Shown: positions 1 to 5,831 of the stretch, in pieces | How positions within the stretch are numbered: the stretch's first letter is position 1 | Layout: each line of letters starts with the position of its first letter | Origin: a virus | Lineage: Duplodnaviria; Heunggongvirae; Uroviricota; Caudoviricetes | Length of the DNA stretch: 42,461 nt | Reading direction: 5' to 3' (one strand) | IMG/VR virus record: IMGVR_UViG_2703719365_000009 | Translations under genes and position numbers: made by a program | The notes under the pieces: model-generated | Told to the model about the DNA's origin: nothing | Database searches by the model: none | Seen by the model: only the letters and a program-made list of their open reading frames with translations

Positions 1-1349
1 CCATCGATGCCGCCAGCCGCACCCTGACGCTGGACCGTGAGGTGACACTGCCGGAGACCGGTGCCGCCACGGTGAACCTGATTAACGGCAGCGGTAAGCC
101 GGTGAGTGTGGACATCACCGCACACCCCGCGCCGGACCGGATACAGGTCAGTACCCTGCCTGATGGTGTGGAGACATACGGGGTGTGGGGACTCTCCCTG
201 CCGTCACTGCGCCGTCGCCTGTTCCGCTGTGTCTCCGTCCGGGAAAACACGGACGGCACCTTTGCCATCACGGCGGTGCAGCACGTACCGGAAAAAGAAG
301 CCATCGTGGATAACGGTGCCCGCTTTGAGCCGCAGTCAGGTTCCCTGAACAGCGTCATCCCACCGGCAGTACAGCACCTGACGGTGGAGGTGAGTGCAGC
401 TGACGGCCAGTATCTGGCGCAGGCTAAATGGGACACGCCGCGGGTGGTGAAGGGCGTGCGCTTCAGTCTGCGCCTGACCAGTGGTAAGGGAACGGATGCC
501 AGACTGGTGACCACCGCCATCACCGCAGACACGGAGCACCGTTTCAGCGGCCTGCCGCTCGGGGAATACACCCTGACGGTGCGGGCGATAAACAGCTATG
601 GCCAGCAGGGTGAACCTGCCACCACCACCTTCCGGATTGCCGCACCGGCAGCACCGTCGCGGATTGAGCTGACGCCGGGCTATTTTCAGATAACCGCCAC
701 GCCGCATCTTGCCGTTTATGACCCGACGGTACAGTTTGAGTTCTGGTTCTCGGAAAAGCGGATTGCGGATATCAGGCAGGTTGAAACCGCAGCCCGCTAT
801 CTTGGCTCGGCGCTGTACTGGATAGCTGCCAGTATCAATATCAAACCGGGCCATGATTATTATTTTTATATCCGCAGTGTGAATACTGTTGGCAAATCGG
901 CATTCGTGGAGGCTGTCGGTCGGGCGAGCGATGATGCGGAAGGTTACCTGGATTTTTTCAAAGGAGAAATCGGGAAAACACATCTGGCCCAGGAGCTGTG
1001 GACGCAGATTGATAACGGTCAGCTTGCGCCGGACCTGGCTGAAATCAGGACGTCCATTACGAATGTCAGCAATGAAATCACGCAGACCGTCAATAAAAAA
1101 CTGGAAAATCAGAGTGCGGCAATCCAGCAGATACAGAAAGTTCAGGTTGATACAAATAATAACCTGAACAGCATGTGGGCCGTGAAACTGCAGCAGATGC
1201 AGGACGGACGCCTTTATATTGCGGGTATCGGTGCCGGTATTGAGAATACGCCAGCAGGAATGCAGAGTCAGGTGCTGCTGGCGGCAGACAGGATTGCGAT
1301 GATTAATCCTGCGAATGGCAACACAAAGCCGATGTTTGTAACCAGGTGA
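1..1349 (+). pseudogene. J: Host specificity / tail tip protein J (lambda J-like), upstream portion; frame enters from window start and is cut by the Mu-like insertion
   Basis: Frame open from nt 3 (5-prime partial). Translation ends ...[22 protein letters not shown] then TR-stop at the insertion end; the conserved continuation [15 protein letters not shown] reappears in frame at 40716. Confidence 0.85.
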
Positions 1350-1515
1350 ATCATTTGATACCGACAAGGGTTTTAGTGAAAGGAGGTGAAATCACCTGTA
1401 AGATGCTGAAATAAAACAGGTGATGTATACTTCGGCCGGAAAACTCTTTTTGATACCGACTGCTCAACAAATAGTCAAAAGATCAAAAAACGGCGACACA
1501 TTTGATACTGCTAAT
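1347..1515 (+). repeat. Left end (attL-like): three transposase-binding-like repeats
   Basis: TTTGATACCGAC at 1354-1365 and 1449-1460, TTTGATACTGC at 1501-1511; first site TGAATCATTTGATACCGACAAG resembles the Mu L1 site as recalled; same motif inverted at the right end. Confidence 0.6.
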
Positions 1516-1692: not shown

Positions 1693-2304
1693 TTAACCAA
1701 CAACATTTTTCTTTACTGTCACTGCCCCTAATTCCTGGGTGGCGTTATTGCTCGAGTTGTACTTCTCAATAACGCGCAAAATCTCTTTGTCTGTTTCTTC
1801 ACTTCCCGCCATTCCTATCTTTATTGCATTTTTTAGTACGGGACGTAATGGCAAGGCATCAATGATGCTTTCTACCGCATCCTGGCTGATTGTAGATGTA
1901 TTCATTGCTGCCAGCCTGACAAGGTTGTTAGTACCTTCTCGCCTGATGAATGTAAGGATTAATTGCTTCTCTTGGGGGCTTAGAGAGCTAAGCGCCTGAT
2001 CAATACCCGAACCTGAATCGCAATTGTTTTCGATTTTTCCGCATTTATCTTCGTTCTTGCCTGTGACCAACCATTCGAGTGAACAATTACAGGCTTTAGC
2101 TATTAAGGCCAGTTTATCCAAAGGAGGGAAGTTTTTCCCCTTCCTGTAATTTCTTACTGTGGCTTCAGATAGTCCACAAAGGGTCGCCAGTTCGACGTTT
2201 GTCATGTTTCCCATAGCCATAGCTAAGCGTTCTGAAAATCGGTTTATTCCTTCCATATCAATAAACCGTTCCGCACTGGATACGGTTTTTTCTGCCTTAT
2301 CCAT
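1693..2304 (-). CDS. Prophage repressor (Mu c-like position; HTH-type regulator)
   Basis: 203-aa ORF divergent from ner-A-B; RBS AGGGGG before ATG at 2304; sits about 350 bp inside left end as in Mu; product call by position and HTH-like N-terminus. Confidence 0.7.
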   Translation of the reverse strand: MDKAEKTVSSAERFIDMEGINRFSERLAMAMGNMTNVELATLCGLSEATVRNYRKGKNFPPLDKLALIAKACNCSLEWLVTGKNEDKCGKIENNCDSGSGIDQALSSLSPQEKQLILTFIRREGTNNLVRLAAMNTSTISQDAVESIIDALPLRPVLKNAIKIGMAGSEETDKEILRVIEKYNSSNNATQELGAVTVKKNVVG

Positions 2305-2460
2305 ATAACCCCCTATAAAACAAAGAAATTATCGATATCGCATTTAATTTCGATATGCTCGCAAAAAACCGTTGATATCGAATTATTTTGCGATTATGAT
2401 TTACCTAAATCGATAACCGGTTTTGATTATCGGTTCAGGTAAACATGAGAGGATCACACA
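2305..2460. promoter_or_regulatory. Repressor/Ner operator region with divergent early promoters; about six TCGATA-type repeats
   Basis: Repeats TTATCGATATCG 2329-2340, TTTCGATATGC 2348-2358, GTTGATATCGAAT 2371-2383, CGATTATGAT 2391-2400, AAATCGATAACC 2408-2419, TTGATTATCGG 2423-2433; candidate rightward promoter -35 TTGATA 2372-2377 and -10 TATGAT 2395-2400. Confidence 0.6.
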
Positions 2461-2727
2461 ATGAGGGTATCCAGACAAGCATCGAATAATTTGTTTGTTC
2501 GAGAGGGGTGTGACTGGTCTGCTAAAGCGGTATATGCAGCCCTTGAAAACAAAGGCACAGACCTCCCTGAACTGGAAAGGGAGTTAGGATTAAAAAGCGG
2601 ATCAATGCGCAATGTGTTTTACCGCCAGTGCCGTAAATACGAAGCCGCCATCGCCGAAAAAATAGGGGTTGAACCTGCTGTAATCTGGCCCAGCAGATAC
2701 CAGGTGGACGCCAGAGAAGTGGCTTGA
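2461..2727 (+). CDS. ner: Ner-like DNA-binding early regulator
   Basis: 88 aa; C-terminal VIWPSRYQ motif matches Mu Ner as recalled; first gene of early operon with RBS GAGAGGA. Confidence 0.85.
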   Translation: MRVSRQASNNLFVREGCDWSAKAVYAALENKGTDLPELERELGLKSGSMRNVFYRQCRKYEAAIAEKIGVEPAVIWPSRYQVDAREVA

Positions 2728-2737
2728 TGGGGGATGT

Positions 2738-4828
2738 ATGTGGGTAACAGCAAAAGAATGTGTTGGTCTTCCTGATTTACCAATGATGGAACATAACATT
2801 CGCCATCGACTCACAAAAGCAGCTGCGGGAAATGCAGCCATGTTACGCAAACGTAAGGGGACAAAAGCAATCGAATTTAATATCGATTGTTTGCCTTCTG
2901 GCGCGCAACAAGTATTGCGTGAACGTTATGCCCTTCAACTGATGACGCAAAAAGCTGATGAATCACCGGCTCCGGTGGTGACAAAGGCCAGACGCTCGCC
3001 TGCCGTGGTTGATGCTGTGGAGGCATATCGCGGATCACCACAACTGATGGTTGAACGCCTTAATGCCCTGACTGAAAACCAGCGCCAGGTGGCTGATGCA
3101 CGAATCGCGATCGTCAGCGAAGTGATGAAAGTCGCGCAACAACCCGGTTTCAGCTGTGCGAAAGCTATCCGGTTTATCGTTGACAACCTGGCACGTTCGC
3201 AGCTGGACGAGCGCATTGTGGCAATGGTTGAGACGGCGAACGCCAAAAAGGGAAACAGCCGTGCGTTGAGTGAAATCACGCTGAAACGCTGGATTGCAGC
3301 CTTTAACAAGGCGCAGAACGCCGCCGAACGCCTGCTTTTACTGGCACCGGGTAAGCGCCAGGAAATAAAAGCCGAAGATATTAACTGGCTGCCCGAATTT
3401 CTGGCGCAGTATCGCCAGTCAAACGGCCGACCAATGACCGAGGCTTACGAGGATTTTGTCGCTGAATGGCAGCACCGGCACGCTGATGAGCCTTATATGC
3501 TCGATATCATGCCGTCTTATGACACCATTCGCCGCGCAATGAAGAAACTGCCGGAAGTGGTGAAACAAAAAGGCCGGGTGACCGGCAGTGAATACCGCCA
3601 GCTTGAGGGATTCACGCGCCGCGACTGGTCCAGAATGCCGGTGAATTATGTCTGGATTGGTGACGGTCACGGCATGAAGCTGAAATGCGCACACCCGGTT
3701 CACGGTCGGCCATTTGCACCGGAAGTGACCTTTGTTATCGACGGTGGCACGCGCTTTGTGGTGGGCTGGAGCCTTGACCTGGCTGAAAATGTTTTCGCCG
3801 TAGCCGGTGCCATACAGCACGGCATTCGCCATCACGGCAAACCGTTTCTGTATTACTCGGATAACGGCTCCGGGGAAACCGCCGACATCCTGGATAAGGA
3901 GGTTGTGGGGATACTGCCGCGACTGGGGATTAATCACCCGACCGGGATTGCCGGTAATCCGCAGGGACGAGGCATTATCGAACGGCTTAACCGCACATTA
4001 CCGATGCGCATAGCCCGTAAATACCGCACCTATTTCGGGAAAGGTGCAGATCGCGAGACGTTACGCAAAACCAACCGCGATTTACGCTCGGCATTTACTG
4101 CCCTGCAACAGGGCAAACGGCTGAACGTCCGGCAGCAGTCAGCGATGCGTGATTTACCGTCCTGGTCTGAACTGATTGATGCCATTCGTGACGGTGTTGA
4201 GTGGTACAACAACCGGCCGCACGATGAATTACCGGTGAAGCCGAACGGCAAGCATTACAGCCCGGCGGAGTTCAGAAAAAAACGCCTGGCGGAAGAGGAC
4301 ACGGAAATTGAATGGCTGTCCGATGTTGAGCTGCGGGATATGTTCCGGCCGATGGTGGAACGCCCTGTAAGACGCTGTGAAATACGCTGGCTGAATAATA
4401 TTTACTACGCGCCCGAGCTGCGTGACGAGCATGGTCGTAAGGTGCTTATCAGCTATGACATTCATGATGCCGAACGAATTACCGTACGTCGCCTGGATGG
4501 CAGCGTGATTTGCGAGGCGGTATGGGACGGTAATAAACGCGAAGCCTTCCCGGTCAGCGCGGAATACTACAAACAGCAGCAACGCCTTAAAGGCATGCGT
4601 AAACGCGCAGAGGAAAAAATCCGTGATGCCGAGGATGAGGTTGTCAACGTGCTGGAGCACAAGCCGCAGGAGCCCTGGCTGGAAAACATATACCGCCCTG
4701 TGGGTAATACGGTGGCCGTTCAGCAACCTGCCGTTGATGATGAGCCTGATGAAGAATACGAGCGTAATTTCCAGCGGGGATTGCAGTTGCTCGAAGCGAA
4801 ATTAAAAGAAAATGACCCGCTGGCCTGA
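2738..4828 (+). CDS. A: Transposase A (MuA-like DDE transposase)
   Basis: 696 aa; N-terminus MWVTAKECVGLPDLP resembles MuA N-terminus; position after ner. Confidence 0.93.
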   Translation: MWVTAKECVGLPDLPMMEHNIRHRLTKAAAGNAAMLRKRKGTKAIEFNIDCLPSGAQQVLRERYALQLMTQKADESPAPVVTKARRSPAVVDAVEAYRGSPQLMVERLNALTENQRQVADARIAIVSEVMKVAQQPGFSCAKAIRFIVDNLARSQLDERIVAMVETANAKKGNSRALSEITLKRWIAAFNKAQNAAERLLLLAPGKRQEIKAEDINWLPEFLAQYRQSNGRPMTEAYEDFVAEWQHRHADEPYMLDIMPSYDTIRRAMKKLPEVVKQKGRVTGSEYRQLEGFTRRDWSRMPVNYVWIGDGHGMKLKCAHPVHGRPFAPEVTFVIDGGTRFVVGWSLDLAENVFAVAGAIQHGIRHHGKPFLYYSDNGSGETADILDKEVVGILPRLGINHPTGIAGNPQGRGIIERLNRTLPMRIARKYRTYFGKGADRETLRKTNRDLRSAFTALQQGKRLNVRQQSAMRDLPSWSELIDAIRDGVEWYNNRPHDELPVKPNGKHYSPAEFRKKRLAEEDTEIEWLSDVELRDMFRPMVERPVRRCEIRWLNNIYYAPELRDEHGRKVLISYDIHDAERITVRRLDGSVICEAVWDGNKREAFPVSAEYYKQQQRLKGMRKRAEEKIRDAEDEVVNVLEHKPQEPWLENIYRPVGNTVAVQQPAVDDEPDEEYERNFQRGLQLLEAKLKENDPLA

Positions 4829-4898: not shown

Positions 4899-5831
4899 AT
4901 GACTGATATTAACGATGTAATCAAGACCATTGATGAACTTATTGATGGCGGCGTACTGACGCAGTATGCCATCGCCAGAGAGGCGGGAATTTCCGACGGC
5001 ACATTATCGGCTTTCCGTAAGGGAAAATATAAAGGCGATAACGCTGCTGTGGCTGCTTCCCTGCGTTCCTGGTATGAGAACTGGAATAAACAAAGCGCAC
5101 TGCCGGAACCGCCGCAGTTTGTGGAAACGCAGACAGTCCAGGAGCTGCGCGCACTGTTTCAGGCGGTTCGTCTGATGGGCTGTATTAACGTTATTGTGGG
5201 CGTACCGGGTGTGGGTAAAACGGCCACTGCCCGTAATTACTGCCAGGAGCAACCAAACACCTGGATGATCACCCTGTCACCCGCGCACTCCAGCGTCACG
5301 GAGTGTCTGCTGGAGCTGGCCGATGCGCTGGGGATTGATTACACCCGCGCGAACAAAGGGGCATTATCCCGCGCCATCCGCCGTCGCCTGATGGGAACGC
5401 GTGGACTGGTGATTGTGGATGAGGCGGATCATCTGGGTATTGACGGTCTGGAGCAACTCCGGGCAATTCAGGACGCCACGGGGATCGGGATGGTGCTTAT
5501 TGGTAACCCGCGCGGATTGTTTAAAGGTGGACGCCGCGCCTTTGATGATTTATCGCGCCTGTTCAGCCGTCTTGCCCGTACAAAACAACTTCGCAAGGCC
5601 AAAAAGGCGGATGTGCTGGCCATTGCCAGGGCATGGGGTATCAGTGGTGAGGCCGAGCTGGCCGTCATGCAGGCTATCGCTGAAAAGCCGGGAGCGTTAC
5701 GCGTTCTGACACATACGCTTAACCAGGCGTGGCTCACCGCCAGCGGTGAAGGCGCGGCGCTGACAGAAAAACATATTAATGCGGCCTTTAAAGAGGTTTA
5801 TACCAACCCTGAATTACTCTCACAGGTGTGA
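4899..5831 (+). CDS. B: Transposition ATPase B (MuB-like AAA+ target DNA activator)
   Basis: 310 aa; Walker A GVPGVGKT; strong overall resemblance to MuB including PEPPQFVETQTV and VIVDEADHLG segments. Confidence 0.93.
   Translation: MTDINDVIKTIDELIDGGVLTQYAIAREAGISDGTLSAFRKGKYKGDNAAVAASLRSWYENWNKQSALPEPPQFVETQTVQELRALFQAVRLMGCINVIVGVPGVGKTATARNYCQEQPNTWMITLSPAHSSVTECLLELADALGIDYTRANKGALSRAIRRRLMGTRGLVIVDEADHLGIDGLEQLRAIQDATGIGMVLIGNPRGLFKGGRRAFDDLSRLFSRLARTKQLRKAKKADVLAIARAWGISGEAELAVMQAIAEKPGALRVLTHTLNQAWLTASGEGAALTEKHINAAFKEVYTNPELLSQV

What the first reader, a model, noticed from the sequence alone, without database searches (positions are those of the whole stretch)
1347..1515. Three plus three TTTGATACCG-type end repeats, distinct from Mu ends but in Mu-like arrangement
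Left end has TTTGATACCGAC at 1354-1365 and 1449-1460 and TTTGATACTGC at 1501-1511. The right end (40633-40703) has three reverse-complement copies packed closely. One spaced site plus a pair on the left and three near-contiguous sites on the right mirrors Mu L1-L3 and R1-R3. The site sequence differs from Mu, suggesting a transposase with altered end specificity.
Basis: partly seen in the sequence, partly recalled or inferred. Interest (0 to 1): 0.45.

Follow-up and report, generated by a model that had tools for sequence, protein, structure and literature searches.

The report
Transposase-binding repeats at Mu-like prophage ends
The repeats are real and are almost certainly the six sites where the transposase of an Sp18-type Mu-like prophage, here inserted in a lambdoid tail gene, grips the prophage's two ends; the layout copies phage Mu, but the recognition sequence, a TA right terminus and a 4-bp target duplication differ.

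Summary
Observation confirmed. TTTGATAC occurs three times inside each end of a 39,380-bp element (window 1337-40716), all pointing inward. That is 6 copies in the two 180-nt end zones against 0.003 expected. The element is an Sp18-type Mu-like prophage, as in E. coli O157 Sakai, inserted in a lambdoid J tail gene. Independent insertions fix the termini exactly. The motif starts 18, 113 and 165 nt from the left terminus and 18, 40 and 75 nt from the right. Mu's RCGAAAR half-sites lie at 21/126/166 and 21/43.

The 18/40/75 geometry holds in all relatives checked, while the motif changes with transposase lineage: TTTGATAC, TTCAAGATA, TTCTGGAC, TTTTGCAT. The change tracks residues about 121-200 of the transposase, in a predicted MuA I-beta-like domain. 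It does not track the immunity module. The transposase is only 23% identical to MuA.

Binding itself is untested.

Three differences from Mu stand out. R3 is direct, not inverted. The right terminus ends TA, not CA. The target duplication is 4 bp in 8 firm and 3 probable end pairs, not 5 bp. It is a known kind of feature, with a modest variant twist.

The parts
1333..1336 (.). Left copy of the 4-bp target-site duplication (TGTT) in the interrupted lambdoid J/TipJ gene
   Evidence: Flank comparison; the same 4 nt follow the right terminus.
1337..1343 (+). Left terminus TGTAACC (5'-TG). Some relatives have TATAACC, TATAGAG or TATGACT here.
   Evidence: Matches to other insertions start exactly here.
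1344..1365 (+). L1: inferred 22-bp site AGGTGAATCA-TTTGATACCGAC (core 1354-1361)
   Evidence: Core starts at position 18 from the terminus. Columns 8-11, 13-15 and 17-25 are invariant in 7 diverged left ends.
1377..1425 (+). L1-L2 spacer with extra AGGTGA / TCACCT copies. Candidate pac or accessory-protein region (inference).
   Evidence: Conserved among Sp18-type variants. It is replaced by a Mu-pac-like CCGGGAGGA...GGGAT sequence in lineages A2 and B.
1439..1460 (+). L2: GAAAACTCTT-TTTGATACCGAC (core 1449-1456)
   Evidence: Position 113 from the terminus. Present in all Sp18-type variants, and shifted to 122 in lineage A2.
1491..1512 (+). L3: CGGCGACACA-TTTGATACTGCT (core 1501-1508)
   Evidence: Position 165. 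Core columns are invariant in the alignment.
1693..2304 (-). CI-type HTH repressor, not related to Mu c
   Evidence: Pfam Phage_CI_repr and HTH_3; no similarity to Mu c.
2310..2450 (.). Divergent regulatory region with inverted repeats. Candidate operators and enhancer (inference).
   Evidence: the repeat finder I1-I3. This region co-varies with the transposase N-terminus in relatives.
2461..2727 (+). Ner-like winged-HTH protein
   Evidence: Pfam HTH_35.
2738..4828 (+). Transposase A, 696 aa. It has a MuA-like I-alpha/I-beta N-terminus, an integrase-like core with DD35E-type spacing and a Mu-transpos_C domain. Residues about 121-200 are the inferred end-specificity segment.
4899..5831 (+). MuB-like AAA+ target-capture ATPase
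   Evidence: Pfam Phage-MuB_C and AAA_22.
39851..40588 (+). Mom DNA-modification gene, the last gene before the right end
   Evidence: Pfam Mom, 1.8e-76.
40631..40652 (-). R3: core TTTGATAC at 40635-40642, in the same orientation as R1 and R2
   Evidence: Position 75 from the terminus in every lineage examined.
40666..40687 (-). R2: core 40670-40677
   Evidence: Position 40, exactly 22 bp from R1 as in Mu.
40688..40709 (-). R1: core 40692-40699
   Evidence: Position 18 from the right terminus, symmetric with L1.
40710..40716 (+). Right terminus ...CGCTATA, with a 3' TA rather than CA
   Evidence: In 12 IMG/VR junctions and 5 genome junctions (L001-L003, L153, L157) the sequence varies only after this A.
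40717..40720 (.). Right copy of the 4-bp target-site duplication (TGTT); the J gene resumes here

Best explanation
The six TTTGATAC-containing repeats are the end-binding sites (L1-L3 and R1-R3) for the transposase encoded at 2738-4828. The element is an Sp18-type Mu-like transposable prophage spanning window 1337-40716.

Each site is about 22 bp. It has a terminus-distal half (TTTGATACCG) and a weaker terminus-proximal half (GGYGA or GCRA). By analogy with MuA (inference), transposase protomers bind the sites through a bipartite I-beta/I-gamma-like domain. They pair the two ends into a transpososome and nick after the terminal A of each 3' end. They then join the ends to target DNA captured by the MuB-like ATPase.

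Shown here:
- the exact ends, and the number, orientation and spacing of the sites;
- conservation of the geometry across diverged relatives;
- co-variation of the distal half-site with one segment of the transposase;
- a 4-bp duplication in every end pair examined.

Inferred: that the protein binds these sites, which subdomain reads which half-site, and the chemistry.
For: 1. The ends are exact. Other insertions in unrelated genes diverge precisely at 1337 and 40716.
2. Six inward copies lie in the end zones against 0.003 expected.
3. L1 and R1 both start 18 nt from their terminus. R1-R2 spacing is 22 bp, as in Mu.
4. Right-end cores start at 18/40/75 in lineages A, A2 and B and at 18/40/74 in Klebsiella Kp4866-3, with VW-6B close to this, although spacers and even the motif differ.
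5. Left-end cores are invariant while spacers diverge.
6. The motif tracks the transposase. Lineage A2 (77-78% identity) keeps TTTGATAC and keeps 60-78% identity in residues 121-200. Lineage B (72-75% identity) uses TTCAAGATA and drops to 28-48% in that segment only. Residues 201-440 and 481-640 stay at about 78-98% identity in both lineages.
7. The motif does not track the immunity module. That module pairs with the transposase N-terminus instead.
8. The AF2 model of residues 1-300 has as its top PDB matches the Mu transpososome (4fcy), MuA I-alpha (1tns) and MuA I-beta (2ezk).
9. The gene set is Mu-like: transposase, MuB, Ner, Mom and Mu-type late genes.
10. The same left end is found at 284 places in 233 of 5426 complete E. 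coli genomes, and the insertions examined lie in unrelated genes. This indicates an active, randomly inserting transposon.
Against: There is no binding, footprinting or transposition experiment for this element in the literature I could read. Key subscription papers were not available.

Sequence similarity to MuA is low at 23%, and phmmer against the PDB finds only retroviral integrase cores. Foldseek E-values are weak (1e-2 to about 2), and the residue ranges of the matches were not reported. Assigning residues 121-200 to an I-beta-like domain is therefore an inference.

Three features differ from the Mu paradigm: direct R3, TA terminus and 4-bp duplication.
Confidence: 0.9

Rival explanations
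1. The repeats are operators for the prophage repressor or Ner, or sites for a host factor, rather than transposase sites.
For: Mu-like left ends lie close to the immunity region. A TTGATATCG-like sequence occurs in the c-ner intergenic region at about 2372-2382.
Against: The same motif, number and spacing are kept in Sp18-type variants carrying at least four different immunity modules. The distance from L1 to tnpA is 1409, 1384, 1250, 1204 or 1192 nt across these variants. The motif also sits at the far right end in inverted orientation, at the same 18-nt offset. It changes when a transposase segment changes, not when the repressor changes.
Confidence: 0.04
2. The repeats are packaging (pac) or terminase recognition signals.
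For: Mu's pac lies in the left end between L1 and L2 (established knowledge). The left end here does carry other conserved repeats, AGGTGA at 1377-1425.
Against: pac is needed at one end only, whereas these repeats are symmetric and inverted at both ends. In lineages A2 and B the L1-L2 spacer switches to a Mu-pac-like sequence while the TTTGATAC or TTCAAGATA sites stay at their positions. Spacer and sites therefore behave as separate modules.
Confidence: 0.03
3. The repeats are chance or relic repeats without function.
For: Two further TTTGATAC copies (4876, 21968) sit inside genes and look like chance.
Against: P is about 8e-18 for the end clustering. Core columns are invariant in diverged relatives. 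The element is mobile in many genomes.
Confidence: 0.01

Closest known systems
Phage Mu attL/attR (L1-L3, R1-R3) bound by MuA domain I-beta-gamma
   Same: Both have three sites per end, with the first site about 18-21 nt from each terminus. L1 is separated by about 95-105 bp from an L2/L3 pair, and R1-R2 are abutting 22-bp sites. The left terminus is TG. The transposase has an I-alpha-like winged helix, an I-beta-like helical domain and Mu-transpos_C. Both have a MuB partner and Mu-type late genes.
   Different: The recognition sequence differs: TTTGATACCG against RCGAAAR/GTTTCAY. R3 is direct and set off by about 13 bp, whereas Mu's is inverted. The right terminus is TA, not CA. The duplication is 4 bp, not 5 bp. 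The transposase is 23% identical, with integrase-like D-35-E spacing. The repressor is CI-type and not homologous to the transposase N-terminus.
Prophage Sp18 of E. coli O157:H7 Sakai and its relatives
   Same: This is the same element family. The first 90 nt of the left end (through L1) and the right-end sites are near-identical, with L2 and L3 kept at the same positions in a diverged stretch, and the gene order is the same. Sp18 is described as an intact Mu-like prophage (PMC2669165).
   Different: The window copy carries a different immunity module and a new insertion site in the lambdoid J gene. No complete E. coli genome has this junction. I found no published description of Sp18's end-binding sites, termini or duplication length.
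D3112/B3-type Pseudomonas transposable phages with predicted L1-L3 and R1-R3 (PMC4378225)
   Same: These have three predicted 22-bp sites at each end, conserved together with transposase A. Their transposases are about 30% identical to this one, closer than MuA.
   Different: They have different motifs and positions (10/93/124 and 4/46/93) and one inverted right site. Their 5'-TGT termini are reported as conserved at both ends. Here the right end reads 5'-TAT on the complementary strand.
Closer relatives: Klebsiella Kp4866-3, Pseudomonas VW-6B, Mannheimia vB_MhM_3927AP2, Haemophilus SuMu
   Same: Transposases are 40-58% identical. At least one end shows the 18-nt offset of the first site and the 22-bp R1-R2 step; VW-6B and Kp4866-3 also carry a third right-end site at about 74. 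VW-6B shares the terminal TGTAGCGCGGCGA with Sp18's TATAGCGCGGCGA.
   Different: The distal half-site differs: TTCTGGAC in VW-6B and TTTTGCAT in Mannheimia and Kp4852-3. The more distant members keep TGT termini. Their duplication length was not determined here.
Retroviral integrases (DD35E)
   Same: The only sequence-level PDB hits to the catalytic core are retroviral integrase cores, ASV/RSV best (SDNGSG...IERLNR, D-35-E spacing). Retroviral integrases make 4-6 bp duplications (PMC4422553 abstract).
   Different: They are an unrelated biological system. Integrases recognise short terminal sequences, not arrays of three sites per end.

Membership tests
Mu-type transposable-phage ends (att sites) | Element encodes a MuA-family DDE transposase next to the left end | tested here: met
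   Pfam Mu-transpos_C (1.5e-17) and HTH_Tnp_Mu_1. BLASTP to MuA gives 23% identity, E=8e-14. DNG and ER catalytic motifs are present.
Mu-type transposable-phage ends (att sites) | MuB-like AAA+ partner downstream of the transposase | tested here: met
   Pfam Phage-MuB_C, 2.5e-25.
Mu-type transposable-phage ends (att sites) | Multiple (three) repeated sites inside each end, in inverted orientation between the ends | tested here: met
   Sites at 18/113/165 on the left and 18/40/75 on the right, all inward.
Mu-type transposable-phage ends (att sites) | Sites are bound by the element's transposase | not testable with these tools
   Only indirect support: co-variation of the motif with transposase residues 121-200.
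Mu-type transposable-phage ends (att sites) | Termini 5'-TG...CA-3' | tested here: not met
   The left end is TG, but the right end is ...CTATA-3' in all 17 independent right junctions. Several relatives also have TA at the left end.
Mu-type transposable-phage ends (att sites) | 5-bp target-site duplication | tested here: not met
   The duplication is 4 bp in 8 firm pairs (TGTT, TAAA, TGCG, TGCC, CGTA, CGTG, GATA, AGGA) and 3 probable cross-contig pairs. A fifth base never matches.
Mu-type transposable-phage ends (att sites) | Near-random insertion sites | tested here: met
   The element occurs at 284 places in 233 genomes, and the insertions examined lie in many unrelated genes.
Mu-type transposable-phage ends (att sites) | Mu-specific detail: R3 inverted relative to R1 and R2 | tested here: not met
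   R3 is direct here; Mu has a reverse match at position 56.
Mu-type transposable-phage ends (att sites) | Internal enhancer (IAS) overlapping the operators, bound by the transposase I-alpha domain that is shared with the repressor | tested here: inconclusive
   An I-alpha-like domain is present (1tns match, 32% identity) and co-varies with the immunity region. However, the repressor is CI-type with no similarity to Mu c. No enhancer was mapped.
Sp18-type prophage family | Near-identical ends and gene order to Sakai Sp18 | tested here: met

The most novel reading that the evidence does not exclude
The enterobacterial Sp18 clade is a natural variant of the Mu transposition machine in three respects:
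- It joins its ends with a 4-bp rather than a 5-bp stagger.
- It tolerates or prefers a TA-3' terminus in place of the near-universal CA.
- It has diversified into mutually distinct transposase and end pairs (TTTGATAC against TTCAAGATA) by changing one I-beta-like subdomain while keeping the 18/40/75 site geometry.

If so, it offers ready-made orthogonal Mu-like systems. It also offers a natural experiment on what sets stagger length and terminal-dinucleotide requirement. This may already be noted in subscription literature that I could not read.
Probability: 0.6. Interest if true: 0.45.

Novelty: new variant of a known kind. Interest (0 to 1): 0.35.

Why it matters
Mu is the textbook model for DDE transposition, and MuA with R1-R2 ends is a widely used in vitro mutagenesis tool.

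An abundant E. coli relative keeps Mu's end architecture but uses a different recognition sequence, a TA terminus and a 4-bp stagger. Closely related lineages appear to have switched specificity through one subdomain. Together these give testable material on how end recognition, the terminal-dinucleotide requirement and target stagger are set. They could also yield orthogonal transposase and end pairs.

For genome annotation, the exact termini allow precise delimitation of these prophages in E. coli, Shigella and Salmonella: TGTAACC or TATAACC at the left and GCGCTATA at the right, with a 4-bp duplication. Such prophages often disrupt genes or other prophages, as here.

In itself, finding transposase-binding repeats at the ends of a Mu-like prophage is expected.

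Tried and rejected
- A 5-bp duplication was tested in all registers (element starting at GTAACC, or ending at GCGCTAT). It fits only the window copy, by coincidence of the target ATGTTTGT, and fails in every other pair. A 6-bp reading fails likewise.
- An apparent T-first bias of the duplication in the first four pairs disappeared with more junctions.
- Literature searches for Sp18 ends, binding sites, or a 4-bp duplication in Mu-like phages found nothing relevant.
- Morgan 2002, Hulo 2015 and Toussaint & Rice 2017 are not held in the library.
- The genome-contig scan with the transposase returned only two loci, both lineage B.
- phmmer against the PDB did not retrieve MuA, so a fold comparison was used instead.
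- The right end of the CP103972 copy was not at the expected distance, so that pair was dropped.
- An attempt to pair ends of the TGT-terminated Klebsiella relatives, to see whether 4 bp is clade-wide, gave left and right ends on different contigs only.
- Many IMG/VR contigs are trimmed at the mom stop codon and lack the right end.

Full report
**1. What is in the window**

Bases 1-1336 and 40717 onward are one lambdoid tail-tip (J/TipJ) gene. It is followed by lom and a side-tail-fibre gene. Between the two J pieces lies a 39,380-bp element.

The element's genes run in this order:
- a CI-type repressor (1693-2304, minus strand);
- a Ner-like protein (2461-2727);
- a 696-aa transposase (2738-4828; Pfam Mu-transpos_C and HTH_Tnp_Mu_1);
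- a MuB-like ATPase (4899-5831);
- Mu-type late genes;
- Mom (39851-40588).

It is the same family as prophage Sp18 of E. coli O157:H7 Sakai. Sp18 is described as an intact Mu-like prophage (PMC2669165). The first 224 nt of its left end match 284 places in 233 of 5426 complete E. coli genomes, with up to 4 copies per genome, and the insertions examined lie in unrelated genes. No complete genome has this particular junction in J.

**2. The observation**

TTTGATAC occurs 8 times in the window against about 1 expected. Six copies lie within 180 nt of the termini and point inward, against 0.003 expected (Poisson P about 8e-18). The repeat finder recovers the same families and extends them to 16-17 nt.

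**3. Exact ends**

I compared independent insertions:
- three complete prophages in other genomes (L001-L003);
- two further genome pairs;
- 12 right junctions and more than 20 left junctions from IMG/VR.

Sequence similarity starts exactly at 1337 (TGTAACC...) and stops exactly at 40716 (...GCGCTATA).

Counted from the termini, the cores start at 18, 113 and 165 on the left and at 18, 40 and 75 on the right, all in the same inward orientation. In Mu the RCGAAAR half-sites start at 21, 126 and 166 on the left. On the right they start at 21 and 43, with R3 inverted at 56. The layout is therefore Mu-like, including the 22-bp R1-R2 step. The differences are that R3 is direct and is set off by about 13 bp.

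**4. Conservation and co-variation**

In seven diverged left ends the L1 and L3 core columns are invariant while the spacers diverge.

Displayed without gaps from the terminus, right-end cores start at 18/40/75 in lineages A, A2 and B. This is despite different spacers. Three lineages can be distinguished:
- **Lineage A.** Sp18-type variants with at least four different immunity modules keep TTTGATAC x3 with spacing 95 and 52.
- **Lineage A2.** Transposases 77-78% identical keep TTTGATAC with spacing 104 and 42.
- **Lineage B.** Transposases 72-75% identical use TTCAAGATA x3 at both ends, at the same right-end positions.

More distant relatives keep the geometry with still other motifs:
- Klebsiella Kp4866-3 (58% identical) has TTGATAC at 18/40/74.
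- Pseudomonas VW-6B (47% identical) has TTCTGGAC at 18, 40 and about 74, after a terminal TGTAGCGCGGCGA.
- Mannheimia 3927AP2 and Klebsiella Kp4852-3 (40-43% identical) have TTTTGCAT at 18 and at +22.

Along the transposase, lineages A2 and B are about equally similar to the window protein in residues 201-440 and 481-640 (about 78-98%). They differ sharply in residues 121-200: 60-78% for A2, which has the same motif, and 28-48% for B, which has the other motif.

The first 40 residues are about 35% identical even among lineage-A variants. They pair instead with the immunity region. For example, L110 (A) matches L134 (B), and L118 (A2) matches L126 (B). The end motif therefore tracks a specific transposase segment and not the repressor module. 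The N-terminus tracks the immunity module, as established for Mu and D108.

**5. Protein domain check**

The transposase is 23% identical to MuA. An AF2 model of residues 1-300 was built from 32 sequences and has mean pLDDT 73. It shows three parts:
- a confident winged-helix unit at 1-66;
- a confident helical domain at 93-202 (pLDDT 85-93);
- a weaker helical unit at 218-276.

Its best PDB matches are the Mu transpososome (4fcy, probability 1.00), MuA I-alpha (1tns, TM 0.61, 32% identity) and MuA I-beta (2ezk, TM 0.64). E-values are weak and match ranges were not given. Placing the specificity segment 121-200 in an I-beta-like domain is therefore an inference.

The catalytic core matches retroviral integrase cores, with D-35-E spacing.

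**6. Site anatomy**

Each inferred 22-bp site has two halves. The terminus-distal half is strong (TTTGATACCG in L1, L2, R1 and R2; TTTGATACT in L3 and R3). The terminus-proximal half is weaker (AGGTGA, CGGCGA or TGCA/CGCA about 4-5 nt upstream).

The proximal part of L1 (AGGT[GA]A) and of R1 (GCGCG...) is kept in both lineage A and lineage B, while the distal half switches. This fits a two-subdomain reader in which only one subdomain changed (inference).

**7. Departures from Mu**

- The right terminus ends TA-3' in all 17 independent junctions. Several relatives also begin TA at the left (TATAACC, TATAGAG, TATGACT, TAAGAAG). More distant relatives keep TGT, and TGT is reported as conserved in other Mu-like phages (PMC4378225).
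- The target duplication is 4 bp in 8 firm pairs: window TGTT, Sakai TAAA, Z570 TGCG, M7638 TGCC, OkiPb01714 CGTA, CI5 CGTG, and two lineage-B contigs GATA and AGGA. Three probable cross-contig pairs agree. A fifth base never matches in any register.
- The repressor is CI-type and unrelated to Mu c.

**8. Rival explanations**

- **Operator or host-factor sites.** Rejected because the motif is independent of the immunity module and is present symmetrically at the far end.
- **pac sites.** Rejected because the repeats are symmetric at both ends, and because the L1-L2 spacer changes type independently of the sites.
- **Chance.** Rejected by the statistics and by conservation.

**9. Literature**

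Papers I could read name Sp18 as Mu-like, but none describes its ends, binding sites or duplication length. Analogous predicted L1-L3 and R1-R3 sites are published for the D3112 group. Three key subscription papers were not available, so prior description cannot be excluded.

**10. Verdict**

The repeats are, with about 0.9 confidence, the transposase end-binding sites of an Sp18-type Mu-like prophage. The kind is well known. The recognition sequence, the direct R3, the TA terminus and the 4-bp duplication make it a variant. Interest is modest at 0.35. The main added value lies in the natural specificity switch and in the 4-bp and TA features.

Noticed in passing
window 1333-1336 and 40717-40720; also L001-L003, L152/L153, L156/L157, L126/L071, L133/L065: The target-site duplication of this prophage family is 4 bp, not Mu's 5 bp, in 8 firm and 3 probable end pairs.
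   Followed up: yes
window 40713-40716; left termini of L092, L106-L109, L117, L118, L005, L124-L126, L133, L134: The right terminus ends TA-3' instead of the canonical CA. Many relatives also start TA at the left end. More distant relatives (VW-6B, Mannheimia, Kp4852-3) keep TGT.
   Followed up: partly
window 2738-2860 (transposase residues 1-40) and 1537-2737; L094/L005, L107/L117, L110/L134, L118/L126: The transposase N-terminus (I-alpha-like) co-varies with the repressor/operator module, independently of the end-motif type. This is modular shuffling like Mu versus D108, although the repressor here is CI-type and not homologous to the transposase N-terminus.
   Followed up: partly
window 1377-1425: The L1-L2 spacer carries extra AGGTGA/TCACCT copies that are conserved among Sp18-type variants. 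In lineages A2 and B this spacer is instead similar to Mu's left-end CCGGGAGGA...GGGAT region, where Mu's pac lies. It is a candidate packaging signal.
   Followed up: no
window 2310-2450: The c-ner intergenic region holds several inverted repeats built on TCGATAT/ATATCGA and TTTACCTAAATCGATAA/TTATCGGTTCAGGTAAA. These are candidate operators. One copy (GTTGATATCGAA, 2371-2382) resembles the end motif.
   Followed up: no
window 40619-40665: A 13-nt inverted repeat (GAAAAGCGCCGAT / ATCGGCGTTTTTC) brackets site R3 just after mom. It may be a terminator-like hairpin overlapping a transposase site.
   Followed up: no
window 3827-4015 (transposase residues 363-425): The catalytic core aligns at sequence level with retroviral integrase cores, ASV/RSV best (SDNGSG...IERLNR, D-35-E spacing), rather than with MuA's longer D-E spacing.
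   Followed up: partly
window 41722-41815: There is a perfect 42-bp tandem duplication (2.2 copies), in frame, inside the lom-like outer-membrane gene of the host lambdoid prophage.
   Followed up: partly
window 1-1336 and 40717-41369: The Mu-like prophage interrupts the J (tail-tip) gene of a lambdoid prophage. Other copies sit in terminase, portal and TipJ genes of lambdoid or Stx prophages. This prophage family therefore repeatedly inactivates resident prophages.
   Followed up: partly
NZ_CP034806.1, about 1,023,669 and about 3,350,320 (hits H18, H39): A left end and a right end of Mu-like copies both abut fragments annotated as a DUF5682 protein, but they lie 2.3 Mb apart on opposite strands. 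This suggests a large inversion by recombination between two prophage copies.
   Followed up: no
L001 (Sakai) 1671-40425: The annotated Sp18 feature (locus 1672-40430) is offset from the termini inferred here by 1 nt on the left and 5 nt on the right.
   Followed up: partly
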